Of a stretch of DNA of 23,613 nt, positions 124 through 23,613 are shown one piece after another. The notes under the pieces are model-generated. The model was not told the origin of the DNA, ran no database searches, and worked only from the letters and a program-made list of their open reading frames with translations. Each line of letters starts with the position of its first letter. The first letter of the stretch is position 1. Source of the DNA: a virus (taxonomy: Duplodnaviria; Heunggongvirae; Uroviricota; Caudoviricetes). Where the stretch lies: the IMG/VR virus record IMGVR_UViG_2617270938_000001; one strand, given 5' to 3'. The position numbers and the translations under genes are program-made.

Positions 124-177
124 CTCTGCAAAACCTCTGCAAAACCCCTCTGCAAAACTGGTCATCAAATGACCAGT
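124..177. repeat. attL-proximal repeats: three tandem copies of CTCTGCAAAAC (124-134, 135-145, 148-158) followed by inverted repeat CTGGTCAT-caa-ATGACCAG (159-177)
   Basis: Read directly from the sequence. Located between the host gene stop and the int stop, where an attL core or integrase binding sites are expected; the inverted repeat overlaps the last int codons. Confidence 0.5.
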
Positions 178-1295
178 TTTTTCCATTCCTTACCGCGTGC
201 GTCGTTGTAAATATCGGTCATTTTTTGATTCGAATGGCCCAGCAAAATTTTGGTATCAACCCCCTGCTCTCTGAACAATCGCTCTGATAAAGATCTCTGC
301 TCATGGAAAGAGGGTGGGGTGCCATTAGCACGCCAGTTGTAATCCACAGAATCCCGGGCTTTTTTAAATGCAACGGTTAATGTTGCTGGCTTAACCATCC
401 CGCCGCGCTTAGCTGTCCCTTTCGCGTGATGGTGGTGCAATAGCCACGGACTAAGAACGCAATCGCGGCAGGATGACACCACATCATCTAGGGTGAGATT
501 TAATTTATCGCAACGCAGAGCCAGAGGGATGGCAATCCGGGTTCCTGTTTTTTGCTGTTCGACATGAAGATAACCATCCCGGATATCCGAAAATTGCATT
601 TTGCAAATATCTGAAAGGCGCTGGCCTGTCATCAGTGCCAGCAGCATACCGCGCTGTAAAAAGTAACCATCCTTTTCCGCTGCGTTATAAATCATCATCC
701 ACTCATCAAAAGTCAGTCGCTGTCTTGATATCCGCACCTGCGGTTTTTTTGCCGATTCTGCAGGGTTAAAGCCTGGCGGGACATCGCCCGTTTGCTGAGC
801 TTCCCGGAAAACATCGATCAGTACCTTCCTGAAAATTTGTCCCATTCTGTTATGTCCTCTGGCCTTGTACTCTTCCAGTACTGATACCACATCTTTTACG
901 GTTATGGCATCTAACGGTCTGGTGCCAAAACGTTCATCAAATACCCTGAGAGGGGCCGCTTTCTGTTTCAGCGTGTTGAGTTTGATCTCGCCGTTTTCAT
1001 ATCTTTCCTGTTGAATTTTTCTGTAATTATTCAGAAAAATGGTAACGGTTGATGAACCGCCGGTATCACTAATAATTTTCTCCTGCAGACTGAGCATTTG
1101 TTCCATTTGCTGCCGGGCAAGACGGCTGTTCGCTTCTGCTGCAATAGTTTCTGCCAGTTTCTGGTCAATACTGCCGAGACCGTGATTTTTGCCTGTTATG
1201 GGATGCCTGTAACGCCAGTAAACTTTGTTATTTCTTTTGTCAAAATACGGAGATAATCCCGGAACATTGGTTTTATATTTTCGCGGGCGCGCCAT
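165..1295 (-). CDS. int: phage integrase, tyrosine recombinase (lambda Int family)
   Basis: 376-aa ORF. C-terminal region resembles lambda Int as I recall it (RLTFDEW..., GQRLSDICKM, HEQRSLSERL, LLGHSNQKMTDIYNDARGKEW), including the His/Arg and Tyr catalytic motifs. Sits next to the host junction with xis overlapping upstream. Confidence 0.9.
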   Translation of the reverse strand: MARPRKYKTNVPGLSPYFDKRNNKVYWRYRHPITGKNHGLGSIDQKLAETIAAEANSRLARQQMEQMLSLQEKIISDTGGSSTVTIFLNNYRKIQQERYENGEIKLNTLKQKAAPLRVFDERFGTRPLDAITVKDVVSVLEEYKARGHNRMGQIFRKVLIDVFREAQQTGDVPPGFNPAESAKKPQVRISRQRLTFDEWMMIYNAAEKDGYFLQRGMLLALMTGQRLSDICKMQFSDIRDGYLHVEQQKTGTRIAIPLALRCDKLNLTLDDVVSSCRDCVLSPWLLHHHHAKGTAKRGGMVKPATLTVAFKKARDSVDYNWRANGTPPSFHEQRSLSERLFREQGVDTKILLGHSNQKMTDIYNDARGKEWKKLVI

Positions 1296-1585: not shown

Positions 1586-4057
1586 TTAAAAATCAGCCTG
1601 GTTCGGGATCAGTTTTTGCCAGATAACTGAAACGTATTTTGCCTGGTAACGGGCGTCATCAAGTGCATTATGGCGCTCACCTTCGAATGGAATAGCCGTT
1701 CTGGCATCGAAGTCTATGGCTTTCCCCAGCTCAACGATTGTGCGTACATCGCGATCGTTGTAGTAACGCCACGGGCAGGGGATCCCCTGCCGTTCGTATG
1801 AACGGCGCAAAATCGTGTTGTCGAAGTTGGCTCCATTTCCCCAGACCTGAACAAAAAATTCACCGGAGTTTTCGTCGATAAATTCCCGCAATTGTAACAG
1901 TGCATCATCTAACGGGATTTCATCGGTCATAATGGCAGACTGCGCTTCACGTGATTGCTTCAGCCACCTTTTAATGACGTCACGATCAATGACTCCGCCA
2001 GCAGTTTCCAGATCGATAGTCTTACTAAATTCCGGTCCCATATCTCCGGTTTGCGGATCGAAAAATATTGCACCTATTGAGATAATCGGGGCATCAGGAT
2101 TTTTTCCCATGGTTTCAAGGTCGATCATTAGATGGTCACACGTCCTGCTGGTGGATGTGATAACGTGATGACCGTTCATCGTAATTAAGGGATCTGCCGT
2201 CTCGCCAGTTTCACTATCGCTGGCGTGATCCTGAGCGCTACCAGCATTCTCCTTGTGTGGATGTTCAGCGCCTTCCATTTCCTTCGGATCATTTTCCTGA
2301 ACTTCAACCTGATTCTCTTCATCGAATGTTTCCTGGTATGTTGCGTCACCCATCACCGCGCCACAATCAGGGCAGTTGCCGCCACCGCTTTGACCGCAGG
2401 CGGTGCAGACTTTTTCCGGTTCCTGTTGCGCTACTGGCTCAGGTTGTTTCGTTTCTGGCTCGTTTTGTTGCGTATTTGGGCTGTTTTGTTCCGCTTTCTG
2501 GTCGTTCTGTTCCGATTCTTGCTGGTTCTGGTTTACAGAATCGCGGGTTTCAATCCCCTTTACCCATTTCGGATCATTCGGGTCGCTAATCCCTGCAACA
2601 AATTCTCCGCGAGAGGCAGCAAGCAACTTATCGGCGTCAGGCTGGCTGATATTGGCTGCCTGCATAATTTTGTTTACTTCGTCAGCGGTAACTTTTACCG
2701 GCTCTGGTTGTGCGGTCGTGTCAGATGCACCAGTATTTTGTTGTGAACCTGAGTACGTGCCGTTTTTACGTGCGAAGTATTCCTCTTTTGTGATTTCCGT
2801 AGCTCCCAAGGCTAGTGCTTTTTCCAGACCAGAAAGTTTGTTTGCGCGACCGTATTTTTCGCCATCCTTGTCGGTGAAGAGGAAGTAGAACGGCCCCTCA
2901 CGCTCTACAGATGGTTCGACTTCCACTTTGCATTCGGTTTTTTCGTTGCCCGGAATTGCCGTTTCCACTGCATCAGTTTCTGGTACTGGCGACGAGAGAG
3001 TATCAGTTGCGCTCTGATTTCTTCCTTCATCTTCAAACACGCCCTTTGTAGTCAGGTATTCAGTAATGTATTTGTTCAGTGCCACAGGGTCTTTGTGAAT
3101 GTCGATCGGACGTTCACGGACAAGGCCAAAAATAGTCTGGCGGTCGTAGCGAAGGGCATCAGGCTGTTTGCGCATTGATGCCGAGATACGCTTCCAGTCT
3201 TCGCGGTCGTTGTCGATAACTTCATTTTTTGCCCAGCGATGGATGCTGCCGTCAATGTTTCCGGCATCCACATCACCAGGCCAGAGAGCGTAGGCCAGTT
3301 CGTCATCCAGTGTTTTCCATGTCTGCTTGTATTCGCGATGAATGGCAGCAATGACCGGGCTGATTTTTCCTGTTGAATTTTCACTGTGCTGTTGATTGGT
3401 TCTGGCGCGGGCGAGATCAACAACAGACGTGTATTTTCCGGTTTCCTTGCGTTCACCTTCGCGACGTTTTTTCCAGATGCGCATCTCTGCCTGAATTTCG
3501 GGCCATTTGGCACCAGGCTTACATTTATGCTTAACCCACCCGATGGCATGCAGCTTAAGCTCCGGATACATGGCGTTAACTTCTGGCATTTTCATCAACG
3601 CTTCAACGATATGTCCGTCGAATGTTGCCATGTCTTCCTGCAACAATTCCTGTGCGCTAATAACCATATCAACGGTGATGTTTTCACATGTGTCGAACTT
3701 AACCATGACAGCGTTCTGTACTTCAGGGGCCAGCTTGTCAAAAGTGACGTTCATCGGATCGGATTCAGTCTCAACCGGGACAAAGGAAGCAGACTCCTCA
3801 TCCCAGCGGTTTTCCTGCATATATTCAGCATCCCAGGAATCGAGGGCAGGGCGGGGTATACCGGGTTTATCCTCGCAGACAAGAAATTTATAAGCGCAGT
3901 CCTGAGCAGCCGGATAATGCTCCAGGAATTGCCAGTGAAATTTTGCGCGGGCGCGACGTTCATCACCGGCTTCAATGGCAGTGGCTACAGCGACGGCACC
4001 TTCTTCCTTTATTGCCTGTTCGTCCGGAATGGCGGCGCAAATAAAGACTTTACTCAT
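1586..4057 (-). CDS. exodeoxyribonuclease VIII-like protein with C-terminal DEDDh (DnaQ-like) 3'-5' exonuclease domain
   Basis: 823-aa ORF. C-terminal ~180 aa has exo motifs (MIDLETMG..., WGNGANFDNTIL, HNALDDARYQAKY). Central Cys4 ribbon CTACGQSGGGNCPDCG and a Q/E/P-rich low-complexity linker. GAGG SD upstream of the ATG at 4057. Confidence 0.8.
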   Translation of the reverse strand: MSKVFICAAIPDEQAIKEEGAVAVATAIEAGDERRARAKFHWQFLEHYPAAQDCAYKFLVCEDKPGIPRPALDSWDAEYMQENRWDEESASFVPVETESDPMNVTFDKLAPEVQNAVMVKFDTCENITVDMVISAQELLQEDMATFDGHIVEALMKMPEVNAMYPELKLHAIGWVKHKCKPGAKWPEIQAEMRIWKKRREGERKETGKYTSVVDLARARTNQQHSENSTGKISPVIAAIHREYKQTWKTLDDELAYALWPGDVDAGNIDGSIHRWAKNEVIDNDREDWKRISASMRKQPDALRYDRQTIFGLVRERPIDIHKDPVALNKYITEYLTTKGVFEDEGRNQSATDTLSSPVPETDAVETAIPGNEKTECKVEVEPSVEREGPFYFLFTDKDGEKYGRANKLSGLEKALALGATEITKEEYFARKNGTYSGSQQNTGASDTTAQPEPVKVTADEVNKIMQAANISQPDADKLLAASRGEFVAGISDPNDPKWVKGIETRDSVNQNQQESEQNDQKAEQNSPNTQQNEPETKQPEPVAQQEPEKVCTACGQSGGGNCPDCGAVMGDATYQETFDEENQVEVQENDPKEMEGAEHPHKENAGSAQDHASDSETGETADPLITMNGHHVITSTSRTCDHLMIDLETMGKNPDAPIISIGAIFFDPQTGDMGPEFSKTIDLETAGGVIDRDVIKRWLKQSREAQSAIMTDEIPLDDALLQLREFIDENSGEFFVQVWGNGANFDNTILRRSYERQGIPCPWRYYNDRDVRTIVELGKAIDFDARTAIPFEGERHNALDDARYQAKYVSVIWQKLIPNQADF

Positions 4058-4526: not shown

Positions 4527-5087
4527 TATCGCGTCCTCAACAATGAATTTTGTGATGCGGTGCCTGGTGCCTCCAGGTGACGTTAACCAGTTAACAATTA
4601 ACGCCGGATACAGAGAATCCACCCATAACACTGTTTTTGGTTTTAACTGTTCCGCGTGCGCTCAGCCGCATTCACCACATCACAAAATTCACTTTAAAAA
4701 GGGCGGCAGAGCAGTCACGGAGTAAAACTGATACCGCCAAACGTCACCAGAAAATTGATAACAGAGGGCGTTGCAGCGGGGTTGTCACTTAAGCGTATGG
4801 TCAACCTGACAACCCGGTGTCCTCAACGGGGAAGGAATACCCCCGCCATACTTACCGCCGCGCCATTTCGCGGAGTGCCACAACCGGAAGCGCACGGTCG
4901 ACGAAAATTTAACGACAGGCTATCTATGAACCAACAACTTCGCCGTGTGCTTTCGCGTTATGCCCTGACTTTTCAGGGAAATATCCTTTCAGTAAACTGT
5001 CAGTGCCGGATGCTCACCCGTGTCCGGCGCACGCACTCCACCTCACCCGTGGAGAACTCCTTAATCACCAACCCTCAGGAGGGTGAA

Positions 5088-5363
5088 ATGTCGACTGAAA
5101 ATGATGAAATCATTAACTCCCTGATACGCCAGATTAATAATTTTGATAAAGCATTGCAACATGCTGCGGCGCGTAGTGATATAACTCTTTTAGCAATTTC
5201 ATTTCTTGCATCTGTTATGGATAAAAATGAAGTCGTACGACAGAGTCTTGTTGATTATATCGACTCGCTTCAACCCGGCACTTTCAATCATGAGAGCTTC
5301 AATCATGAGAAAGAGCATGTTAAGTCTGTAATTAATTCTCTTATTTTGAATCAAAAGAATTAA
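5088..5363 (+). CDS. hypothetical protein (91 aa) on the opposite strand inside the leftward operon, AT-rich (moron-like)
   Basis: Strong SD AGGAGGG 4 nt before ATG 5088 (MSTENDEIINSLIRQINNF...). Low-GC segment. The upstream part of ORF 4755..5363 has no SD and looks like run-in. Confidence 0.5.
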   Translation: MSTENDEIINSLIRQINNFDKALQHAAARSDITLLAISFLASVMDKNEVVRQSLVDYIDSLQPGTFNHESFNHEKEHVKSVINSLILNQKN

Positions 5364-10731: not shown

Positions 10732-10942
10732 AAACGGTTTGCGGGAAAAGGAGAGTTAAGTAGAATTGCAGCGGGTGCTTGAGGCTATCTGTCTCAGGCA
10801 TGAACACCAAAAGGCAGATAGAGAAAAGCCCCAGTTAACATTACGCGTCCGGCAAGACGCTTAACATTAATCTGAGGCCATATCTATGCTCTACACACGT
10901 AGGTTAGCCTCTTACGTGCCGAAAGGCAAGGAGAAGCAGGCT

Positions 10943-11098
10943 ATGAAGCAGCAAAAGGCGATGCTAATCGCCCTGATCGTCATCTGTTTAACCGTCATTG
11001 TGACGGCACTGGTAACGAGGAAAGACCTCTGCGAGGTACGAATCCGAACCGGCCAGACGGAGGTCGCTGTCTTCACAGCTTACGAACCTGAGGAGTAA
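10943..11098 (+). CDS. hokD: Hok/Gef-family type I toxin (51 aa; matches my recollection of E. coli HokD/RelF)
   Basis: MKQQKAMLIALIVICLTVIVTALVTRKDLCEVRIRTGQTEVAVFTAYEPEE. AGGAGA SD 8 nt upstream. An in-frame upstream extension from ATG 10886 gives a 70-aa mok-like ORF. Confidence 0.9.
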   Translation: MKQQKAMLIALIVICLTVIVTALVTRKDLCEVRIRTGQTEVAVFTAYEPEE

Positions 11099-12603: not shown

Positions 12604-12978
12604 ATGCTCATAGATTTGGTTTTACCTTACCCGCCGACGGTGAACACTTACTGGCGACGCCGTGGCAGCACATATTTTGTATCAAAAGCCGGGGAGCGTT
12701 ATCGCCGGGCAGTGGCGCTTATTGTTCGCCAGCAGCGGCTGAAATTAAGCCTGTCCGGAAGGCTGGCGATAAAGGTGATTGCAGAGCCACCGGATAAGCG
12801 TCGTCGCGACCTGGACAATATCCTGAAAGCACCGCTGGATGCGCTGACGCATGCGGGAGTGTTAATGGACGATGAGCAGTTTGATGAAATCAATATCGTT
12901 CGTGGTCAGCCAGTATCTGGTGGACGTCTGGGGGTGAAGATTTACCCCATAATGCATGAAGAGCAGGTCAAAAAATGA
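12604..12978 (+). CDS. rusA: Holliday junction resolvase RusA
   Basis: 124 aa with PPTVNTYWRRRG and RRRDLDNILKAPLDAL, matching the RusA motifs I recall (PPSNNRYYR... / RRRDLDNLQKA...). AGAGG SD. Confidence 0.85.
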   Translation: MLIDLVLPYPPTVNTYWRRRGSTYFVSKAGERYRRAVALIVRQQRLKLSLSGRLAIKVIAEPPDKRRRDLDNILKAPLDALTHAGVLMDDEQFDEINIVRGQPVSGGRLGVKIYPIMHEEQVKK

Positions 12979-13796
12979 AACTGGAAGATTTACCGAAATA
13001 CTACTCCCCAAAATCCCCCGGCCTGACTGATGCATCGGCCTCAACGTCGAAAGATGCGCTGAGTATCACTGATGTGATGGCCGCGCAGGGCATGACACAG
13101 AATCGGGCTGAGATGGGGTTTTCTGCGTTCCTTGGGAAAATGGGCATCAGTATGAATGACAGGGCGCGGGCAACAGAATTACTGGCAGATTATGCACTCA
13201 GTCGGTGCGATCGTGTGGCGGCGTTGAGAAAACTTCCGGCAGAAATAAAACCGGTAGTGATGCGCATTATGGCTTCGTACGCTTTTGAGGATTATGCCCG
13301 CAGCGCAGCGAGTAAAAAGCAGTGCCCTTGTTGCTATGGGGAAAAATTTATTGAAAGCATAGTTTTTACAAACAAGGTCCAGTATCCGGATGGTAAGCCG
13401 CCGGTATGGGCAAAGTGTACGAAAGGTGTGTATCCGTCTTACTGGGAAGAATGGAAAAAAGTCAGGGAGGTGGTAAAAGTTGCCTGTCCGGAGTGTGGCG
13501 GAAAGGGTGAGGTTTCCACCGCCTGTAAGGATTGCCGTGGGCGTGGTGTCGCCATTCATCGTGAAGAGTCGGTAAAACGTGGTATGCCTGTTATCAGAGA
13601 CTGCCAGCGTTGTGATGGTCGTGGCTGTGAAAGACTACCATCAACGGAGGCATTTAATGCCATACGCAAAGTGACGAGTGCTATCACGCTTGATACGTGG
13701 AAAAAATCAGTGAAACGCTTTTACGATACGTTGGTGGTTCGGTTTGACATTGAAGAGGCATGGGCGGAGCGGCAGTTAAAGAGGGTAACGCGATAG
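12975..13796 (+). CDS. late-gene antitermination protein Q (82/21/933W type)
   Basis: 273 aa with a Cys-rich zinc motif (CPECGGKGEVSTACKDCRGRG ... CQRCDGRG). Overlaps the rusA stop (ATGA); followed immediately by a promoter/terminator pair. Confidence 0.8.
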   Translation: MKLEDLPKYYSPKSPGLTDASASTSKDALSITDVMAAQGMTQNRAEMGFSAFLGKMGISMNDRARATELLADYALSRCDRVAALRKLPAEIKPVVMRIMASYAFEDYARSAASKKQCPCCYGEKFIESIVFTNKVQYPDGKPPVWAKCTKGVYPSYWEEWKKVREVVKVACPECGGKGEVSTACKDCRGRGVAIHREESVKRGMPVIRDCQRCDGRGCERLPSTEAFNAIRKVTSAITLDTWKKSVKRFYDTLVVRFDIEEAWAERQLKRVTR

Positions 13797-15469: not shown

Positions 15470-15540
15470 GGCCCTTTAGCTCAGTGGTGAGAGCGAGCTA
15501 AAGGGCCGGGTCGCTGGTTCAAATCCAGCAAGGGCCACCA
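15470..15540 (+). tRNA. tRNA-Ile-like element with aberrant anticodon arm (probable tRNA pseudogene)
   Basis: Acceptor GGCCCTT/AAGGGCC, D-arm GCTC-AGTGGTGA-GAGC, T-arm GCTGG-TTCAAAT-CCAGC and 3' ACCA are intact. The anticodon-arm region is 12 nt (AGCTAAAGGGCC) instead of 17 and is perfectly complementary to the element's own 5' end. Confidence 0.5.
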
Positions 15541-15549
15541 TATCACATA

Positions 15550-15626
15550 CCACCATTAGCTCATCGGGATAGAGCGCCAGCCTTCGAAGCTGGTTGCGCG
15601 GGGTTCGAGTTCTCGATGGCGGTCCA
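15550..15626 (+). tRNA. tRNA-Arg (anticodon TCG)-like; candidate tRNA with imperfect stems
   Basis: D-arm GCTC-ATCGGGATA-GAGC; anticodon arm CCAGC-CTTCGAA-GCTGG; T-loop TTCGAGT; 3' CCA. One A-C mismatch in the acceptor stem and two G-T pairs in the T-stem. Confidence 0.45.
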
Positions 15627-15882: not shown

Positions 15883-16080
15883 ATTGTCTGGCTGCCGGAG
15901 AATTTGTTAAAAATAACATCGCATGGTGAATCCCCCTCAGCGGCGGGGCATCTGGCAAAGTGTATGATCCAGAGAACATGCAAATTCAGTAGACAGGCTG
16001 AATTTACCGGGAGGCCCCTGGCACCATGCGACAGACAGAAATTAGGCTATACTTCAGCCCCTCTCCGGAGGGGCTTTTCT
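15883..16080 (+). ncRNA. candidate noncoding RNA element A (about 198 nt), paralog of element B, ending in intrinsic terminator AGCCCCTC-TCCG-GAGGGGCT + TTTT
   Basis: Shares blocks with 16352-16545 (ATTGTCTGGC, TTTGTTAAAAA, CGCATGGTGAATCCCCCT, GAATTnACCGGGAGGCnCCnGGCACCATGC, identical terminator hairpin). The overlapping ORFs are on different strands in the two copies, arguing against a shared protein. Confidence 0.45.
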
Positions 16081-16268
16081 GTGCAGGATGTGTCACAGTT
16101 TCCTGAATTCTGAGTACTGTCCTGTTACTCAGGGTGCTATATTTTCTGACGTGATGAAAGTCTGCCGGAAGGCGGAACGTATCGGAAATGACCCAGTAGA
16201 GAAAACGTTGACTCAGATACCGATGCTGAGTTACCGGGAAACCGGCATCACATGACCGCTATCCTTCC

Positions 16269-16351: not shown

Positions 16352-16545
16352 ATTGTCTGGCCGGCGGGAAGTTTGTTAAAAAATTTCGCATGGTGAATCC
16401 CCCTGTGCGGAGGGGTAATCAGCGAGTAGGTATATGGGATAATCGCGGATTCAGGTGCTGGTACTGAATTCACCGGGAGGCACCCGGCACCATGCAATGG
16501 CACATAGCGCCACTCTCCAGCCCCTCTCCGGAGGGGCTGTTTATA
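16352..16545 (+). ncRNA. candidate noncoding RNA element B (about 194 nt), paralog of element A, same terminator hairpin (16519-16538)
   Basis: See element A. The conserved 5' block, the GGTGAATCCCCCT block, the GGGAGGC block and the terminator are retained while the middle has diverged. Confidence 0.45.
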
Positions 16546-16573
16546 TTGATTTTGTCAGATGTGAGTAAACTCC

Positions 16574-17169: not shown

Positions 17170-17358
17170 ATGGCATTTAAACACTATGATGTTGTCAGGG
17201 CGGCGGCGCCGTCAGATCTTGCGGAAAAGCTGACACATAAACTGAAAGAGGGCTGGCAGCCGTTTGGTAGTCCGGTGGCCATAACCCCTTATACCCTGAT
17301 GCAGGCGATTGCAGCAGAAGGTGATGTGGTGGTCAGTGGTGCAACTGAGCCGGAGTGA
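17170..17358 (+). CDS. small conserved hypothetical protein (62 aa) upstream of the holin (possibly DUF1737-like)
   Basis: MAFKHYDVVRAAAPSDLAEKLTHKLKEGWQPFGSPVAI...; position just before the lysis cassette. Family name is recalled, not verified. Confidence 0.45.
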   Translation: MAFKHYDVVRAAAPSDLAEKLTHKLKEGWQPFGSPVAITPYTLMQAIAAEGDVVVSGATEPE

Positions 17359-17600
17359 TACTACGTCATCGTACTGGCCCGGCATTCCAGGCCATAAAAG
17401 ACGGTCTGGCAGTGGGACTAAATGCACTGACGCTGACGGATATTACCAAAAATGCAACGTATGGCGTTGAGATAGAAAGTCTGGTGCTGGAGATAAATAC
17501 ACCGGCATCATCATAAAAAGTGAGCCAGTCAAATGGAAGGTATCGTTAAACTCACCGGTAGTGTCAGTGGAGCGTCTGAGACGCTTGCATGAGTTATCAG

Positions 17601-17665: not shown

Positions 17666-17881
17666 ATGGACCAGATGGAAAAAATCACAACAGGTGTGTC
17701 ATACACCACGTCAGCGGTGGGAACGGGCTACTGGTTCCTGCAGTTGCTGGACAGGGTTTCCCCGTCTCAGTGGGCGGCAATAGGCGTGCTGGGGAGTCTG
17801 CTGTTTGGGCTGCTGACATATCTGACTAACCTGTATTTCAAAATCAGAGAGGACCGTCGTAAGGCGGCACGGGGAGAGTAA
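17666..17881 (+). CDS. class II holin, phage 21 S21-type pinholin (71 aa) with dual-start motif
   Basis: [71 protein letters not shown], close to S21 as I recall it; Met1 and Met4 give the dual start. The track ORF 17561..17881 includes upstream run-in. Confidence 0.85.
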
Positions 17882-17885
17882 TTCA

Positions 17886-18236
17886 ATGACTCAAAACTAT
17901 GAACTGATTGTGAAAGGGATCCGCAATTTTGAGAATAAAGTTACGGTAACTTTAGCGTTACGGGACAAAAAACGCTTTGACGGTGAAATTTTTGACCTGG
18001 ACATCTCGCTGGACCGTGTTGAAGGTGCCGCGCTGGAGTTTTATGAGGCAGCAGCCAGAATGAGCATCAGACAGGTCTTCCTGGATGTTGCTGCCGGGTT
18101 ATGTGAAGGGGATGAGCAGTCGCCGGAAAAGCGCCCCGTAATTTTAGAGGCGCAGAATGTATGGATAACCTACAAAGGAAAGCTACCGGGAAGAATTACT
18201 GGTTCTCTGAAGACTCCTCCGGAATCACAACCTTAA
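17886..18236 (+). CDS. hypothetical protein (116 aa) embedded between holin and endolysin (YdfR-like position)
   Basis: GGGGAGAG SD; starts 5 nt after the holin stop. Some lambdoid prophages carry a gene at this position, but I cannot verify the family. Confidence 0.55.
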   Translation: MTQNYELIVKGIRNFENKVTVTLALRDKKRFDGEIFDLDISLDRVEGAALEFYEAAARMSIRQVFLDVAAGLCEGDEQSPEKRPVILEAQNVWITYKGKLPGRITGSLKTPPESQP

Positions 18237-18299
18237 GTCACTGACCGGAACAGATAAACCTGTCCGTGGGCAGAAACCGATAAATCCTGATAAATATCC

Positions 18300-18833
18300 A
18301 TGAACACCAAAATCAAATACGGCCTGTCGGCTGCCGTTCTGGCGCTGATTGCCGCTGGTGCGCCTGCGCCTGACATTCTCGACCAGTTTCTGGATGAAAA
18401 GGAAGGTAACCACACCACGGCATACCGTGATGGCGCGGGTATCTGGACCATCTGCCGCGGTGCCATCCTGGTGGATGGCAAACCTGTCGTTCCGGGCATG
18501 AAGTTGTCGAAGGAAAAATGCGACCGGGTTAACGCCATTGAGCGTGATAAGGCGCTGGCATGGGTGGAGAAAAACATCAAAGTGCCATTGAGCGAACCCC
18601 AGAAAGCGGGGATCGCGTCATTCTGTCCGTACAACATTGGTCCCGGTAAGTGTTTCCCGTCGACGTTTTATAAACGAATTAATGCAGGTGATCGCAGGGG
18701 AGCGTGTGAGGCGATTCGCTGGTGGATTAAGGACGGTGGCAGAGACTGCCGTATTCGTTCAAACAACTGCTACGGTCAGGTATCCCGTCGTGACCAGGAG
18801 AGCGCGCTGGCGTGCTGGGGTATCGACAGATAA
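18300..18833 (+). CDS. endolysin, lysozyme (T4-lysozyme / GH24-like) with N-terminal SAR (signal-anchor-release) domain
   Basis: 177 aa. Gly/Ala-rich weakly hydrophobic N-terminus (GLSAAVLALIAAGAPAP) followed by a lysozyme-like core (EGNHTTAYRDGAGIWTICRG ...), as in phage 21 R. Follows the pinholin. Confidence 0.85.
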   Translation: MNTKIKYGLSAAVLALIAAGAPAPDILDQFLDEKEGNHTTAYRDGAGIWTICRGAILVDGKPVVPGMKLSKEKCDRVNAIERDKALAWVEKNIKVPLSEPQKAGIASFCPYNIGPGKCFPSTFYKRINAGDRRGACEAIRWWIKDGGRDCRIRSNNCYGQVSRRDQESALACWGIDR

Positions 18834-18922
18834 GCAGAATATTTTGCTGAAAAATGCGGTTTGCTTACACGGACGGATAACACGAAATCCTGCGAACTGA
18901 CAAAAACTAAGTGAATAAAAGT

Positions 18923-18962
18923 AAAAACCCCGTTTGTTGGCTGCAAGCGGGGTTTTGTGTTT
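18923..18962 (+). terminator. intrinsic terminator-like hairpin inside the lysis cassette (AAAACCCCG ... CGGGGTTTT + GTGTTT)
   Basis: 9-bp stem with a 15-nt loop and U-rich 3' side, between the endolysin and the small TM ORF / Rz. Confidence 0.45.
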
Positions 18963-18992
18963 CCTGACTCTGGAAAAGTCAAAGGAGAAAGT

Positions 18993-19130
18993 GTGTTTGA
19001 TTTTAGCAAACTGATTCGGGAGATTCGAGTGATGGCTGAAAAATTATCCACCTGGAAGTTCATTCTTATCTGGCTGGTGTTTGTGATTATGGCCTCCGGT
19101 TATTTCATCGGTCAGATACGCTGGTGGTGA
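18993..19130 (+). CDS. small membrane protein (45 aa) immediately upstream of Rz; not in the ORF track
   Basis: GTG start with strong SD AAGGAG 5 nt upstream: (M)FDFSKLIREIRVMAEKLSTWKFILIWLVFVIMASGYFIGQIRWW. One TM segment; stop 1 nt before the Rz ATG. Confidence 0.4.
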   Translation: MFDFSKLIREIRVMAEKLSTWKFILIWLVFVIMASGYFIGQIRWW

Positions 19131-19131
19131 A

Positions 19132-19497
19132 ATGAACCGCGTACTGTGCGTGGTCATCATTGCCCTGCTGGTGGCCTGTGGTGCGCTTAGTCTGGGGCTG
19201 AATCATTACCGTGATAACGCCATAACCTACAAAGAGCAGCGCGATAAAAAAGTCAGTGAGCTGGAGCAGGCAAATGCAACCATTACTGATATGCAGCAGC
19301 GCCAGCGTGATGTTGCTGTACTTGATGCCAGATACTCGAGGGAATTAGCCGATGCGAGAGCTGAAAATGAAACTCTGCGCGCTGACGTTGCCGCTGGTCG
19401 TAAGCGCCTGCGGATCAACGCCACCTGCCCCGGTACCCGAACACGGCACTGGTCGGCGTGCAGGTGGACTCGGAACAGTTCGGCAGCCAGCAGGTGA
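19132..19497 (+). CDS. i-spanin Rz, N-terminal ~90 aa only; C-terminus replaced by out-of-frame J sequence (likely pseudogene); no Rz1 found
   Basis: [93 protein letters not shown] closely parallels lambda Rz; similarity is lost at about 19400-19420 where the J frame opens. Confidence 0.7.
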
Positions 19498-22280
19498 GCC
19501 GTAATTATCATCTTCGCGGGCGCATTCTGCAGGTGCCGTCGAACTATAACCCGCAGACGCGGCAATACAGCGGTATCTGGGACGGAACGTTTAAGCCAGC
19601 ATACAGCAACAACATGGCCTGGTGTCTGTGGGATATGCTGACCCATCCGCGCTACGGCATGGGGAAGCGTCTCGGTGCGGCGGATGTGGACAAATGGGCG
19701 CTGTATGTCATCGGCCAGAATTGCGACCAGTCGGTGCCGGATGGCTTTGGTGGCACGGAGCCGCGCATCACCTGTAATGCCTACCTGACCACACAGCGCA
19801 AGGCGTGGGATGTTCTCAGTGATTTCTGCTCGGCGATGCGCTGTATGCCGGTATGGAACGGGCAGACGCTGACGTTCGTGCAGGACCGACCGTCGGATAA
19901 GGTGTGGACCTATAACCGCAGTAATGTGGTGATGCCGGATGATGGCGCGCCGTTCCGCTACAGCTTCAGTGCCCTGAAGGACCGTCATAATGCCGTTGAG
20001 GTGAACTGGATTGACCCGGATAACGGCTGGGAGACGGCGACAGAGCTTGTTGAAGATACGCAGGCCATTGCCCGTTACGGTCGTAACGTCACGAAGATAG
20101 ATGCCTTTGGCTGTACCAGCCGGGGGCAGGCACATCGCGCCGGGCTGTGGCTGATTAAAACAGAACTGCTGGAAACGCAGACCGTGGACTTCAGCGTGGG
20201 TGCTGAAGGGCTTCGCCATGTGCCGGGCGATGTCATTGAAATCTGTGATGATGACTATGCCGGTATCAGCACCGGTGGTCGCGTGCTGGCGGTGAACAGC
20301 CAGACCCGGACGCTGACGCTCGACCGTGAAATCACGCTGCCATCCTCCGGTACCACGCTGATAAGCCTGGTTGACGGTCAGGGTAATCCGGTCAGCGTGG
20401 AGGTCCAGTCCGTCACCGACGGCGTGAAGGTGAAAGTGAGCCGTGTTCCTGACGGCGTTGCCGGATACAGCGTGTGGGGGCTGAAGCTGCCGACGCTGCG
20501 CCAGCGCCTGTTCCGCTGCGTGAGTATCCGTGAGAACGACGACGGCACGTATGCCATCACCGCCGTGCAGCATGTACCGGAAAAAGAAGCCATCGTGGAT
20601 AACGGGGCGCACTTTGACGGCGACCAGAGCGGCACGGTGAATGGTGTCACGCCGCCAGCGGTGCAGCATCTGACCGCAGAAGTCACCGCAGACAGCGGGG
20701 AATACCAGGTGCTGGCCCGCTGGGACACGCCGAAGGTGGTGAAGGGCGTGAGCTTCCTGCTTCGCCTGACCGTGGCAGCGGATGACGGCAGTGAGCGGCT
20801 GGTCAGCACGGCCCGGACGACGGAAACCACTTACCGCTTCACACAACTGGCTCTGGGGAACTACAGGCTGACAGTCCGGGCAGTAAATGCGTGGGGGCAG
20901 CAGGGCGATCCGGCGTCGGTATCGTTCCGGATTGCCGCACCGGCAGCGCCGTCGCGGATTGAGCTGACGCCGGGCTATTTTCAGATAACCGCCACGCCGC
21001 ATCTTGCGGTTTATGATCCGACGGTACAGTTTGAGTTCTGGTTCTCGGAAAAGCGGATTGCGGATATCAGGCAGGTTGAAACCACAGCACGCTATCTTGG
21101 GACGGCGCTGTACTGGATAGCCGCCAGTATCAATATCAGGCCGGGTCATAATTATTATTTTTACGTTCGCAGTGTGAACACCGTTGGCAAATCGGCATTC
21201 GTGGAGGCTGTTGGTCAGCCGAGTGATGACGCATCCGGCTATCTGGATTTTTTCAAAGGCGAGATAGGGAAAACCCATCTGGCTCAGGAGCTGTGGACGC
21301 AGATTGATAACGGTCAGCTTGCGCCTGACCTGGCTGAAATCAGAACATCCATTACGGATGTCAGCAATGAAATCACACAGACCGTCAATAAGAAACTGGA
21401 AGACCAGAGTGCGGCAATTCAGCAGATACAGAAGGTTCAGGTTGATACAAATAATAACCTGAACAGCATGTGGGCTGTGAAGCTGCAGCAGATGCAGGAC
21501 GGACGCCTTTATATCGCGGGTATTGGTGCCGGTATTGAGAACACCCCTGACGGCATGCAGAGTCAGGTGCTGCTGGCGGCAGACAGGATTGCGATGATTA
21601 ATCCTGCGAATGGCAACACAAAGCCGATGTTTGTTGGGCAGGGCGATCAGATATTCATGAACGACGTGTTCCTGAAACGCCTGACGGCTCCCACCATTAC
21701 CAGCGGCGGTAATCCTCCGGTATTTTCCCTGACACCGGACGGGCGGCTGACGGCGAAAAATGCCGATATCAGCGGTAACGTGAATGCGAACTCCGGGACG
21801 CTCAACAACGTCACGATTAACGAGAACTGTCGGGTTCTGGGAAAACTGTCTGCGAACCAGATTGAAGGCGATCTCGTTAAAACAGTGGGCAAAGCTTTCC
21901 CCCGGGACTCCCGTGCACCGGAGCGGTGGCCATCAGGGACCATTACCGTCAGGGTTTATGACGATCAGCCGTTTGACCGGCAGATTGTTATTCCCGCGGT
22001 GGCGTTTCGTGGCGCTAAACATGAGCGGGAGAATAACGATATTTATTCGTCATGCCGCCTGATGGTGAAGAAAAACGGTGCTGAAATTTATAACCGTACC
22101 GCGCTGGATAATACGCTGGTTTATACAGGTGTTATTGATATGCCTGCTGGTCGCGGTCACATGACGCTGGAGTTTTCGGTATCAGCGTGGCTGGTAAATG
22201 ACTGGTATCCCACAGCCAGTATCAGTGATTTGCTGGTTGTGGTGATGAAGAAATCCACAGCAGGTATCACGATTAGCTGA
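19404..22280 (+). CDS. J: tail-tip host specificity protein J, 5'-truncated (C-terminal ~940-960 codons; no upstream J sequence, start codon or promoter of its own)
   Basis: Long high-GC ORF with the size, position (immediately before lom and stf) and motifs expected of lambda J's C-terminal two-thirds. The frame is open from 19404; the track ORF begins at GTG 19458. Head and tail-shaft genes are absent upstream. Confidence 0.8.
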
Positions 22281-22348: not shown

Positions 22349-22948
22349 ATGCGTAAAGTTTGTGCAGCCATTTTGTCCGCAGCCATCTGTCTGGCCGTAT
22401 CCGGTGCGCCTGCATGGGCGTCTGAGCAGCAGGCCACACTGAGCGCAGGGTATCTTCATGCCCGTACGAACGCTCCCGGCAGCGATAATCTGAACGGGAT
22501 TAACGTGAAATACCGTTATGAGTTTACGGACACGCTGGGGCTGATTACGTCATTCAGTTATGCCAACGCTGAAGATGAGCAAAAAACGCATTACAGCGAT
22601 ACCCGCTGGCATGAGGATTCCGTGCGTAACCGCTGGTTCAGCGTGATGGTGGGGCCGTCTGTGCGCGTGAATGAATGGTTCAGCGCGTATGCGATGGCGG
22701 GTGTGGCTTACAGCCGTGTGTCGACTTTCTCCGGGGATTATCTCCGCGTAACTGACAACAAGGGGAAAACGCACGACGTGCTGACCGGAAGTGATGACGG
22801 TCGCCACAGCAACATGTCTCTGGCGTGGGGGGCTGGCGTGCAGTTTAACCCGACCGAATCCGTGGCCATTGATGTCGCTTATGAAGGCTCCGGCAGTGGC
22901 GACTGGCGCACTGACGGTTTCATCGTGGGTGTCGGTTATAAGTTCTGA
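22349..22948 (+). CDS. lom: Lom outer-membrane protein (Ail/Lom/PagC family)
   Basis: 199 aa; signal peptide, GINVKYRYE motif and C-terminus AYEGSGSGDWRTDGFIVGVGYKF, the same C-terminus as lambda Lom as I recall it. Confidence 0.9.
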   Translation: MRKVCAAILSAAICLAVSGAPAWASEQQATLSAGYLHARTNAPGSDNLNGINVKYRYEFTDTLGLITSFSYANAEDEQKTHYSDTRWHEDSVRNRWFSVMVGPSVRVNEWFSAYAMAGVAYSRVSTFSGDYLRVTDNKGKTHDVLTGSDDGRHSNMSLAWGAGVQFNPTESVAIDVAYEGSGSGDWRTDGFIVGVGYKF

Positions 22949-23012: not shown

Positions 23013-23613
23013 ATGGCAGTAAAGATTTCAGGTGTACTGAAAGACGGTGCAGGTAAACCGGTACAGAACTGTACAATCCAGCTGAAAGCAAAACGTAACA
23101 GCACCACGGTGGTGGCGAACACGGTGGCCTCAGAAAATCCGGATGAAGCCGGGCGTTACAGCATGGACGTTGAGTACGGTCAGTACAGCGTTATTCTGTT
23201 GGTGGAAGGCTTCCCGCCATCGCATGCCGGGACCATCACCGTGTATGAAGACTCACAACCGGGTACGCTGAATGATTTTCTCGGTGCCATGACGGAGGAT
23301 GATGTCCGTCCGGAGGCACTGCGCCGCTTTGAACTGATGGTGGAAGAGGTGGCGCGTAACGCGTCCGCAGTGGCACAGAACACAGCAGCCGCGAAGAAGT
23401 CAGCCGGCGATGCCAGCACATCAGCCCGTGAGGCGGCAACCCGTGCGACTGATGCTGCAGGCTCAGCACGTGCAGCCAGCACGTCAGCCGGACAGGCCGC
23501 GTCGTCGGCTCAGTCAGCGTCTTCCAGCGCAGGAACGGCATCAGCAAAGGCCACTGAAGCATCAAAAAGTGCTGCCGCCGCAGAGTCTTCAAAAAGCGCG
23601 GCAGCCACCAGTG
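23013..23613 (+). CDS. stf: side tail fibre protein Stf, N-terminal part (partial; runs off the window end)
   Basis: ATG 23013 with GGGGTGA SD: MAVKISGVLKDGAGKPVQNCTIQLKAKRNSTTVVANTVASENPDEAGRYSMDVEYGQYSVIL..., closely matching the lambda Stf N-terminus from memory. No stop before base 23613, so it is absent from the ORF track. Confidence 0.85.
   Translation, partial: MAVKISGVLKDGAGKPVQNCTIQLKAKRNSTTVVANTVASENPDEAGRYSMDVEYGQYSVILLVEGFPPSHAGTITVYEDSQPGTLNDFLGAMTEDDVRPEALRRFELMVEEVARNASAVAQNTAAAKKSAGDASTSAREAATRATDAAGSARAASTSAGQAASSAQSASSSAGTASAKATEASKSAAAAESSKSAAATS

What the first reader, a model, noticed from the sequence alone, without database searches (positions are those of the whole stretch)
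19380..19470. Deletion junction fusing truncated Rz to the interior of tail gene J: defective prophage
Rz similarity to lambda Rz holds through ...[10 protein letters not shown] (about 19400) and then the translation becomes unrelated. In another frame an ORF opens at 19404 and continues for about 950 codons as the C-terminal part of J. All head, packaging and tail-shaft genes and the 5' part of J are therefore missing, and the embedded Rz1 region (expected in the distal third of Rz) is lost. The prophage cannot form particles and its spanin function is probably incomplete, yet lom, stf and the J receptor-binding C-terminus are retained.
Basis: partly seen in the sequence, partly recalled or inferred. 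Interest (0 to 1): 0.6.

Follow-up and report, generated by a model that had tools for sequence, protein, structure and literature searches.

The report
Prophage deletion joint at J hotspot
This is the scar of an ~18-kb deletion that removed all head and tail genes from a lambda-like prophage. The event itself is ordinary, but its end inside tail gene J falls on exactly the same base as at least nine other independent deletions in E. coli, which points to an unexplained site-specific break point.

Summary
Rz homology (305/306 identical to an intact relative) runs to window 19437. J homology (600/600) starts at 19434. The four shared bases, TACC at 19434-19437, are the joint.

- **What is lost.** An intact relative carries 17,999 bp here: the last third of Rz, cos, terminase, head genes, tail-shaft genes and J codons 1-211.
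- **One correction.** Rz1 is not wholly lost. Its start codon, signal peptide, lipobox and about 9 mature residues survive, followed by out-of-frame J sequence.
- **How common this joint is.** It occurs only in this draft contig, and in none of 5,426 complete E. coli genomes.
- **The unexpected part.** The J endpoint (nt 633|634, lambda coordinate 16138) is the same in nine junction types with different left partners: Rz, DUF968, two nu1 sites, A, W, portal, the ssb region and J nt ~270. One of them is the E. coli B relic ECB_00512. One reciprocal joint also ends there. Three control positions in J gave none.

I tested hairpin, gyrase-motif, GajA-motif, cos-like-site and homing-endonuclease explanations. 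None was convincing, so the cause of the hotspot is unknown.

The parts
19434..19437 (+). Deletion joint: TACC, shared by Rz (nt 303-306) and J (nt 634-637). This is 4-bp microhomology with no inserted bases.
   Evidence: Rz identity ends at 19437 and J identity begins at 19434. The flanking 12-mers are unrelated to the other parent.
19132..19497 (+). Truncated Rz (i-spanin): codons 1-102 of 155, then a 19-aa out-of-frame tail read from J DNA.
   Evidence: (PF03245, 92 bits, profile positions 1-83 of 126).
19352..19504 (+). Truncated Rz1 (o-spanin) in the +1 frame. Start codon (19352 or 19367), signal peptide, lipobox LVVSAC and about 9 mature residues are kept. A 22-aa tail read from J DNA follows.
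   Evidence: intact Rz1 in L002; PF06085 hits the intact Rz1 but not this remnant.
19434..22280 (+). J' : codons 212 to the end of tail tip/host-specificity gene J (948 codons plus stop). The frame is open from 19404. The first in-frame starts are GTG 19458 and GTG 19464. No J start codon and no obvious ribosome-binding site.
   Evidence: Phage-tail_3, Ig_J, Ig_J_second, Phage_Tail_Tip, Ig_GpJ_C; 82% aa identity to lambda J residues 212-1131.
22349..22948 (+). lom (Ail/Lom outer-membrane protein), intact.
   Evidence: PF06316.
23013..23613 (+). 5' part of side tail fibre gene stf. It runs off the end of the contig.
   Evidence: (PF08400).
17666..18833 (+). Retained lysis genes upstream of the joint: class II holin (17666-17881), YdfR/DUF1327 (17886-18236) and lysozyme (18300-18833).
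165..1295 (-). Integrase at the left end of the prophage. In relatives it lies next to ompW.
12975..13796 (+). Late-gene antiterminator (Q-like). Late transcription into Rz'-J'-lom would depend on it (inference).
   Evidence: PF03589.

Best explanation
Window 19434-19437 is the novel joint of one ~18-kb deletion inside a Rac-like lambdoid prophage.

**Shown.**
- Illegitimate recombination joined Rz codon 102 to J codon 212 across four shared bases (TACC).
- It removed the distal third of Rz, most of Rz1, cos, the terminase genes, all head and tail-shaft genes, and the first 211 codons of J.
- Neither Rz' nor Rz1' is in frame with J'.
- At least nine other junctions with different partners end at exactly J nt 633|634.

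**Inferred.**
- The prophage cannot package DNA or build particles on its own.
- Its spanin pair is non-functional.
- J' is an untranslated or poorly translated relic.
- Something makes a defined DNA end or lesion at this phosphodiester bond. That end is then joined, without loss of bases, to a site elsewhere that matches 0-4 of its terminal bases (T, TA, TAC or TACC).
- What makes the break is not identified.
For: **Joint.**: 305/306 Rz identity to 19437, 600/600 J identity from 19434, TACC overlap.

**Missing genes.**: an intact relative, NCTC86, has 17,999 bp between the breakpoints. The equivalent span in lambda coordinates is 18,372 bp (46271 to 16138); no morphogenesis gene anywhere in the window.

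**Truncations.**

**Recurrence of the J endpoint (right part of J kept).**
- DUF968 stop codon ^ J in NZ_CM151386.
- nu1 3' end ^ J in 65 complete genomes, including REL606, BL21 and strain C.
- A ^ J.
- J nt ~270 ^ J.
- ssb region ^ J and portal ^ J.
- nu1 codon 46 ^ J and W codon 20 ^ J.

**Reciprocal joint (left part of J kept).** J nt 1-633 ^ stf in MS20649.

**Controls.** The same scan at J nt 436, 811 and 1036 found no junction, although those 32-mers are more widespread than the hotspot 32-mer. All 80 sampled IMG/VR J loci are continuous through nt 633, apart from two cut short by the contig end.

**Independence.** Truncated J' alleles are no closer to each other than to intact alleles.
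Against: - This exact Rz^J joint is seen only in this one draft contig, and read support could not be checked.
- The hotspot was found by searching at this position. Only three control positions were scanned, so the enrichment is not quantified genome-wide.
- Five of the ten junction types come only from draft or metagenome assemblies. One of these is a 1.4x-coverage contig.
- No mechanism for the break passed a test.
- Defectiveness, loss of spanin function and lack of J' translation are inferred, not measured.
Confidence: 0.85

Rival explanations
1. Assembly chimera: the Rz^J join is a mis-join in a short-read draft assembly. Both genes are repeated in several prophages of the same genome, so there may be no deletion in the cell.
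For: The window is an entire 23,613-bp draft contig that ends inside the repeated stf gene. The joint is absent from 5,426 complete genomes. The fusion proteins were found only on this contig.
Against: Mis-joins in graph assemblers occur across shared k-mers of tens of bases, and here only 4 bases are shared. The J side lands on the same base as joints present in finished genomes such as REL606, BL21 and MS20649, which an artefact would not do. The look-up reports the contig in 2 samples.
Confidence: 0.04
2. Not an internal deletion but an acquisition. A linear DNA fragment whose physical end was J nt 634 recombined by homology in J-lom-stf. Its free end was joined illegitimately to Rz, replacing everything in between (homology-facilitated illegitimate recombination).
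For: A fixed DNA end with microhomology confined to its terminal 0-4 bases fits all ten junctions. J' alleles next to the joints are as diverse as intact J alleles.
Against: No known process makes a phage DNA end at this position, and no cos-like or related 26-mer exists elsewhere in the loci examined. The net product is identical to a deletion, so the sequence cannot separate the two. The reciprocal joint in MS20649 is explained more simply by a break in the resident prophage.
Confidence: 0.1
3. No hotspot. The shared J endpoint reflects chance, or serial descent in which one old truncated J' was re-deleted on its left side several times.
For: nu1^J could in principle derive from A^J through a 6-bp GATACC match. 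KD602 (nu1^stf) uses the same nu1 site as the E. coli B joint and may be a second event at an existing joint. Only three control positions were scanned.
Against: A^J, W^J, portal^J, nu1-46^J and J270^J each keep DNA that the other joints lack, so they cannot all descend from one another. Serial descent would still need every new deletion to end on the same base. The left-retained joint in MS20649 breaks at the same bond. All controls were empty.
Confidence: 0.07
4. The hotspot is caused by local DNA structure. A small hairpin, CAGTGC-[TACC]-CG-AACA-CG-GCACTG, exposes TACC as a 4-nt bulge. It is cut at the stem/bulge boundary (SbcCD-like cleavage 5' of the unpaired region) or stalls replication, and the end is then joined through the bulge bases.
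For: The predicted hairpin has dG -6.0 kcal/mol and z = -2.5, and only 3 of 200 shuffles fold as well. The unpaired bulge is exactly TACC, and the break lies at its 5' edge. 147 of 158 sampled J alleles keep the perfect 6-bp stem. SbcCD cutting 5' of hairpin loops is from my own knowledge.
Against: Twenty regions of J fold as well or better, down to -11.1 kcal/mol. Control positions, including nt 1036 next to a -7.6 kcal/mol hairpin, show no junctions. A 101-nt context gives z = +0.4 to +0.6. Known SbcCD substrates are much longer palindromes (my knowledge).
Confidence: 0.15
5. The hotspot is a strong type II topoisomerase (gyrase) cleavage site. The deletions arise by exchange between two cleavage complexes, and TACC is the 4-base stagger.
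For: Identity between J and its partners is concentrated in exactly four bases: 4, 4, 4, 3, 3, 3, 2, 2 and 0-1 of 4. No bases are lost at the J end, and both reciprocal kinds of product exist. Gyrase-mediated illegitimate recombination by subunit exchange is an established proposal (PMC11164529).
Against: In the register required, the J site matches the core of the Topo-Seq gyrase consensus (GGCGGTAT|NNNN|ATACCGCC; PMC6379681 supplement) at only 3/8 plus 3/8 flank positions. The alternative register, which uses ATACC as a flank, predicts J's C at position -1, whereas every joint carries the partner's base. The position-weight matrix itself was not available.
Confidence: 0.12

Closest known systems
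DLP12 prophage relic of E. coli B (REL606 ECB_00512 region; also BL21 and E. coli C)
   Same: This is also a lambdoid prophage whose morphogenesis genes were deleted, leaving J'-stf. Its J' starts at exactly the same base (TACC|CGAAC) and has the same length of 2,847 nt. The called ORF starts at the same GTG, by arithmetic on the coordinates in bioRxiv 10.1101/2020.11.02.365361.
   Different: The left partner is the 3' end of nu1, not Rz. It is a different prophage at a different chromosomal site. Rz/Rz1 (rzpD/rzoD) stay intact there, and lom is absent between J' and stf in REL606.
Cryptic lambdoid prophages with other deletions (EC21Z-101 at the same ompW site; Rac, DLP12 and Qin of K-12)
   Same: The kind of object is the same: integrase, regulatory and lysis modules are kept, head and tail genes are lost, and the distal tail-fibre region is kept. 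EC21Z-101 is 92-99% identical to the window across most of its length.
   Different: EC21Z-101 joins the small terminase gene to J near nt 1455 and keeps Rz/Rz1 whole. The K-12 comparison rests on my own knowledge.
Lambda Rz/Rz1 two-component spanin
   Same: There is an N-terminal membrane anchor plus the first coiled-coil part of Rz. The gene is embedded in the +1 frame with a lipobox, and the alignment to lambda Rz holds through residue 103.
   Different: Rz lacks its last 53 residues. Rz1 lacks about 32 of its 41 mature residues. Both end in unrelated tails.
Short-homology illegitimate recombination in E. coli/lambda (microhomology end joining; gyrase-mediated recombination; Ikeda and co-workers)
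   Same: The joints have 0-4 bp of homology, no IS element and no att site (background in PMC11164529 and PMC3375238).
   Different: One partner here is fixed to a single phosphodiester bond in many natural isolates, while the other varies over 0.4-35 kb. I found no report of a hotspot in J.

Membership tests
Rz i-spanin (Pfam PF03245, Phage_lysis) | N-terminal membrane anchor and a match to the Rz profile | tested here: met
   92.3 bits against a cut-off of 25.4, residues 29-111 on profile positions 1-83 of 126; alignment to lambda Rz residues 1-103.
Rz i-spanin (Pfam PF03245, Phage_lysis) | Complete periplasmic domain, including the C-terminal part that pairs with Rz1 | tested here: not met
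   homology ends at codon 102 of 155, and the remaining 19 aa are out-of-frame J sequence.
Rz1 o-spanin (Pfam PF06085) | ORF embedded in the +1 frame of Rz with a signal peptide and lipobox cysteine | tested here: met
   [15 protein letters not shown]..., identical to the intact relative through ...GSTPPAPVP.
Rz1 o-spanin (Pfam PF06085) | Mature proline-rich domain of about 40 aa | tested here: not met
   PF06085 hits the intact Rz1 of L002 (74 bits) but not the window remnant. About 9 mature residues remain.
Tail tip / host-specificity protein J (TipJ) | Central and C-terminal domains (Phage-tail_3, two Ig_J domains, Phage_Tail_Tip, receptor-binding Ig_GpJ_C) | tested here: met
   all five families are above their cut-offs; 82% identity to lambda J residues 212-1131.
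Tail tip / host-specificity protein J (TipJ) | Complete gene with its own start codon and N-terminal 211 residues | tested here: not met
   homology starts at J nt 634.
Defective (cryptic) lambdoid prophage | Integration, regulation and lysis modules present while terminase, portal, capsid and tail-shaft genes are absent at the canonical position | tested here: met
Defective (cryptic) lambdoid prophage | Inability to produce particles | not testable with these tools
   Inferred from gene content only. Helper prophages elsewhere in the genome were not examined.
Microhomology-mediated illegitimate deletion | Both flanks collinear with intact relatives right up to a joint that carries only a few shared bases. 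No IS element, att site or long repeat. | tested here: met
   TACC only, and the adjacent 12-mers are unrelated; no related 26-mer elsewhere.
Gyrase-mediated illegitimate recombination | Breakpoint coincides with a gyrase cleavage motif in the correct register | tested here: not met
   consensus core against the J site: 3/8 plus 3/8 flank matches. The alternative register predicts the wrong base at position -1. Only the consensus was available, not the matrix.
Hairpin/palindrome-induced breakage (SbcCD type) | An unusually stable inverted repeat at the breakpoint | tested here: inconclusive
   a hairpin with a TACC bulge, z = -2.5; 20 equal or better hairpins elsewhere in J.

The most novel reading that the evidence does not exclude
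J nt 633|634 (lambda 16137|16138, CAGTGC|TACCCG) is a site-specific break point. It may be the target of an unidentified nuclease, topoisomerase or structure-dependent lesion. It repeatedly amputates lambdoid prophages at one bond in unrelated E. coli lineages. The result is J'-lom-stf relics, including ECB_00512 of E. coli B, which incoming phages can later recombine with to improve host recognition.
Probability: 0.55. Interest if true: 0.65.

Novelty: new member of a known kind. Interest (0 to 1): 0.45.

Why it matters
On its own, the joint only shows how one prophage became defective, and such decay is commonplace.

The shared endpoint is the interesting part. If a single bond in a conserved tail gene is broken again and again in nature, prophage decay is not purely random. 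A specific enzyme or DNA feature is shaping which phage remnants bacteria keep.

Those remnants matter. The E. coli B relic that starts at this same base donated J sequence to lambda in a laboratory coevolution experiment and doubled the phage's fitness on resistant hosts (bioRxiv 10.1101/2020.11.02.365361).

The hotspot is directly testable with a lambda lysogen.

Tried and rejected
1. **Same joint elsewhere.** It is absent from 5,426 complete E. coli genomes and from INPHARED phages. Exact-protein look-ups return only the source contig.
2. **GTDB species representatives.** Two pattern scans found nothing.
3. **Other scans at the hotspot.** Scans for J's native C at -1 with a non-G base at -2 (HCTACCC...), and for left-retained joints (…CAGTGC + non-T), were empty in IMG/VR.
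4. **Hairpin.** It is real but unexceptional.
5. **Cos-like or repeated copy of the 26-mer around the break.** None was found in the window or in intact relatives.
6. **Gyrase consensus.** It does not fit in the required register.
7. **Gabija GajA nicking motif TNNNS|RGGNNA (PMC8136825).** The bottom strand reads TGTTC|GGGTAG, which is one mismatch. However, the nick would fall at 638|639 rather than 633|634, and the enzyme is from Bacillus.
8. **Free-standing homing endonuclease next to J.** The extra ORF between I and J in many relatives is a lipoprotein moron of unknown function, phrog_914.
9. **Motifs checked by eye and rejected.** These were Chi sites, lambda att core, IS ends, Type IIS/III sites, EcoKI, and IS200/IS605 or IS91 targets. 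No tool was run for them.
10. **Common ancestry of the truncated J' copies.** Not supported.
11. **Literature.** No report of a breakpoint hotspot in J was found.

Full report
**Provenance and setting.** The window is the whole of contig JNMO01000073.1 (23,613 bp) of the draft assembly GCA_000700385.1. Its gene order is:
- integrase (165-1295, minus strand), excisionase, an 823-aa RecE-like exonuclease;
- dicB/DicF, repressor, Cro-like and YdaT genes, replication genes;
- hok/sok, DUF968, RusA, Q-type antiterminator, DNA methylase, two tRNAs, IraM;
- holin, YdfR, lysozyme, then Rz'^'J, lom and the start of stf.

Close relatives sit next to ompW in complete E. coli genomes. Identity is 92-99% over most segments.

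**Checking the observation.**
- With 18840-19480 as the query, 845 complete genomes match at up to 99.8% identity, and the best matches end at window 19437.
- With 18900-20000 as the query, thousands of genomes match J, starting at window 19434. No genome covers both halves.
- A four-way alignment with an intact Rz locus (L002) and an intact J (L003) shows the switch directly. It reads ...CCTGCCCCGG-TACC-CGAACACGG..., where Rz continues natively with GTGCGTG and J is preceded natively by AAACAGTGC.
- Identity is 305/306 on the Rz side up to 19437 and 600/600 on the J side from 19434. The 12 bases beyond the joint on either side are unrelated to the other parent.
- The joint is therefore TACC at 19434-19437. 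This corresponds to Rz nt 303-306 (codon 102 of 155) and J nt 634-637 (codon 212). In lambda coordinates it joins 46271 to 16138.
The statement that the J-frame ORF opens at 19404 is exact, because TAA lies at 19401-19403.

**What is lost and what is kept.**
- NCTC86 carries a related prophage at the same site. It is about 96% identical across the roughly 71% of the window that aligns, and the match runs up to exactly 19437.
- Between the two breakpoints NCTC86 has an intact Rz, an HNH endonuclease, small and large terminase, capsid, portal, connector, tail tube, tape measure, and the L, K, I and J genes. That span is 17,999 bp.
- None of these genes is in the window.
- Rz' keeps profile positions 1-83 of 126 of PF03245 and then reads 19 foreign residues.
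- Rz1 is not lost. The +1-frame [32 protein letters not shown]... is identical to the intact Rz1 through the signal peptide, lipobox and about 9 mature residues. It then reads 22 foreign residues. The Rz1 profile no longer detects it.
- Rz, Rz1 and J occupy three different frames, so there is no fusion protein.
- J' keeps every domain from Phage-tail_3 to the receptor-binding C-terminus. lom and the start of stf follow.
- The following points are inferences from gene content and from what is known of lambda: the prophage cannot form particles, spanin function is gone, and J' (which has no start codon or ribosome-binding site of its own) is at best poorly translated.

**Real or artefact?** The joint is unique to this contig, and I could not inspect reads. 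A four-base overlap is not how graph assemblers mis-join repeats. The J side also lands on a base that is a genuine breakpoint in finished genomes (see below). I put the chance of an assembly artefact at about 4%.

**The recurrent J endpoint.** The top hit (NZ_CM151386) turned out to join the stop codon of DUF968 to J at the same place: GGGTA|CCCGAAC. I then searched public collections for the J sequence to the right of the joint preceded by a non-J base. That search, plus a protein search for the out-of-frame tails that such joints create, gave these further partners:

| Partner | Where found | Shared bases |
|---|---|---|
| nu1 3' end | 65 complete genomes incl. REL606, BL21, E. coli C; several IMG/VR and metagenome contigs | TACC |
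| Large terminase gene A | IMG/VR contig | TAC |
| J nt ~270 | 1.4x-coverage metagenome contig | T |
| 3' side of a P22-type ssb gene | IMG/VR contig | TA |
| Portal codon ~181 | IMG/VR contig | TACC |
| nu1 codon 46 | 12 contigs incl. a 558-kb one | none |
| W codon 20 | draft contig | TA |

- With the window (Rz, TACC) and DUF968 (TA), that makes nine different left partners for one J endpoint. The deletions range from 0.36 kb to about 35 kb.
- A spread sample of complete genomes also turned up the reciprocal product. In MS20649, J nt 1-633 ends at ...CAGTGC and is joined, with no shared bases, to stf nt 548.
- KD602 joins the same nu1 site as E. coli B to stf about 18 bases upstream of the MS20649 stf breakpoint. 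That would fit a second break at an existing nu1^J joint.

**Controls.**
- The same scan at J nt 436, 811 and 1036 used 32-mers present in 75-78 of 80 sampled J loci, against 41 of 80 for the hotspot 32-mer. It returned only point variants of intact J and no junction.
- All 80 sampled IMG/VR J loci are continuous across nt 633, apart from two cut by contig ends.
- Other J breakpoints do exist, for example nt ~1455 in EC21Z-101 and an internal 767-to-2966 deletion in L206. None of them recurred in my data.
- Truncated J' alleles are no closer to each other than to intact alleles. For example, the portal^J copy is 99.4% identical to lambda J. Several joints also keep DNA that the others lack. 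The events are therefore independent.
- Caveats: the hotspot was found by looking at this position, only three controls were run, and half of the junction types come from draft or metagenome assemblies.

**What the pattern implies.**
- In every right-retained joint, J contributes from T634 onwards.
- Shared bases always begin at T634 and never exceed four.
- The left-retained joint ends at C633.
- This is what one expects if a defined DNA end at 633|634 is joined through its terminal bases without being resected, while the other side is variable.

**Causes I tested.**

| Candidate | Result |
|---|---|
| Local hairpin CAGTGC-[TACC]-CG-AACA-CG-GCACTG | Predicted (dG -6.0, z = -2.5) with TACC as the unpaired bulge. 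However, 20 regions of J fold as well or better, and 101-nt contexts give z of about +0.5. |
| Gyrase Topo-Seq consensus core | Does not fit in the required register. The other register predicts the wrong base at -1. |
| GajA nicking motif | Fits with one mismatch, but places the nick five bases away. |
| Cos-like or related copy of the site | None elsewhere. |
| Extra ORF upstream of J in many relatives | A lipoprotein moron, not an endonuclease. |

The cause remains unknown. Gyrase-type exchange (background in PMC11164529) and a structure-dependent break are kept as low-confidence rivals.

**Comparison with what is known.**
- As an object, this is one more cryptic lambdoid prophage formed by illegitimate recombination, which is a well-known kind.
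- Its nearest documented counterpart is the DLP12 relic of E. coli B. There, J' starts at the same base and is the ORF ECB_00512.
- Lambda recombined with ECB_00512 in a coevolution experiment and gained fitness (bioRxiv 10.1101/2020.11.02.365361).
- I found no paper describing a recurrent breakpoint in J.

**Verdict.** The joint itself is ordinary. The base-precise recurrence of its J endpoint is unexpected, unexplained and testable, and that accounts for the middling interest score.

Noticed in passing
window 17374-17395 (compare L004 18351-19837): There is a second, unrelated deletion. About 1.49 kb from the interior of the SASA-family (nanS-like) esterase gene is missing relative to EC21Z-101. 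A DUF1737 N-terminal fragment (17170-17358) and a 53-aa ORF remain. The two alignment blocks overlap by about 22 bases. L002 carries the same truncation.
   Followed up: partly
window 18924-19130: A terminator-like hairpin (14 pairs followed by a T run, 18924-18956) lies between lysozyme and Rz. It is followed by a small ORF (18957/18993-19130) with a hydrophobic C-terminal half and no Pfam match. The same region is present in intact relatives.
   Followed up: no
window 4701-4752 (-), 10773-10948 (+), 15891-16084 and 16360-16548 (+), 15470-15537 and 15550-15626 (+): Rfam matches above the gathering score: DicF, sok antitoxin (next to hok), two copies of sRNA STnc100, and two tRNAs. ARAGORN calls only the second tRNA, as tRNA-Arg(tcg).
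   Followed up: no
L203 (NZ_CM145715, KD602) 1120-1201; L190 (REL606) 5140-5155: KD602 joins nu1 to stf at the same nu1 site (CTGATA) that E. coli B uses for its nu1^J joint, with GATA shared. Its stf endpoint lies about 18 bases upstream of the MS20649 J^stf endpoint. Either the existing joint was cut again, or these are further hotspots.
   Followed up: partly
L206 (GCA_012069055) 3140-3783: The nu1-codon-46^J relic has a second internal J deletion from nt 767 to nt 2966. Only about 134 nt after the hotspot plus the C-terminal receptor-binding domain remain.
   Followed up: partly
L004 (NZ_CP101240, EC21Z-101) 22527-24808: A prophage at the same ompW site, 92-99% identical to the window across most of its length, lost its morphogenesis genes through a different deletion. 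That deletion joins the small terminase gene to J near nt 1455 around GGTATC, and Rz/Rz1 stay intact.
   Followed up: partly
L003 1963-2301; L097 7596-7934: Many relatives carry a 112-aa lipoprotein gene (signal peptide plus LTGC lipobox, phrog_914, unknown function) inserted between tail genes I and J. Lambda has no gene at this position.
   Followed up: partly
J codon 211 (window equivalent just left of 19434; L012-L015, L194-L196): The codon immediately left of the break is polymorphic at the protein level among intact J alleles: TGC Cys in most, and GGC, GGT or GGA Gly or AGC Ser in a minority. The Gly variants weaken the predicted hairpin stem.
   Followed up: no
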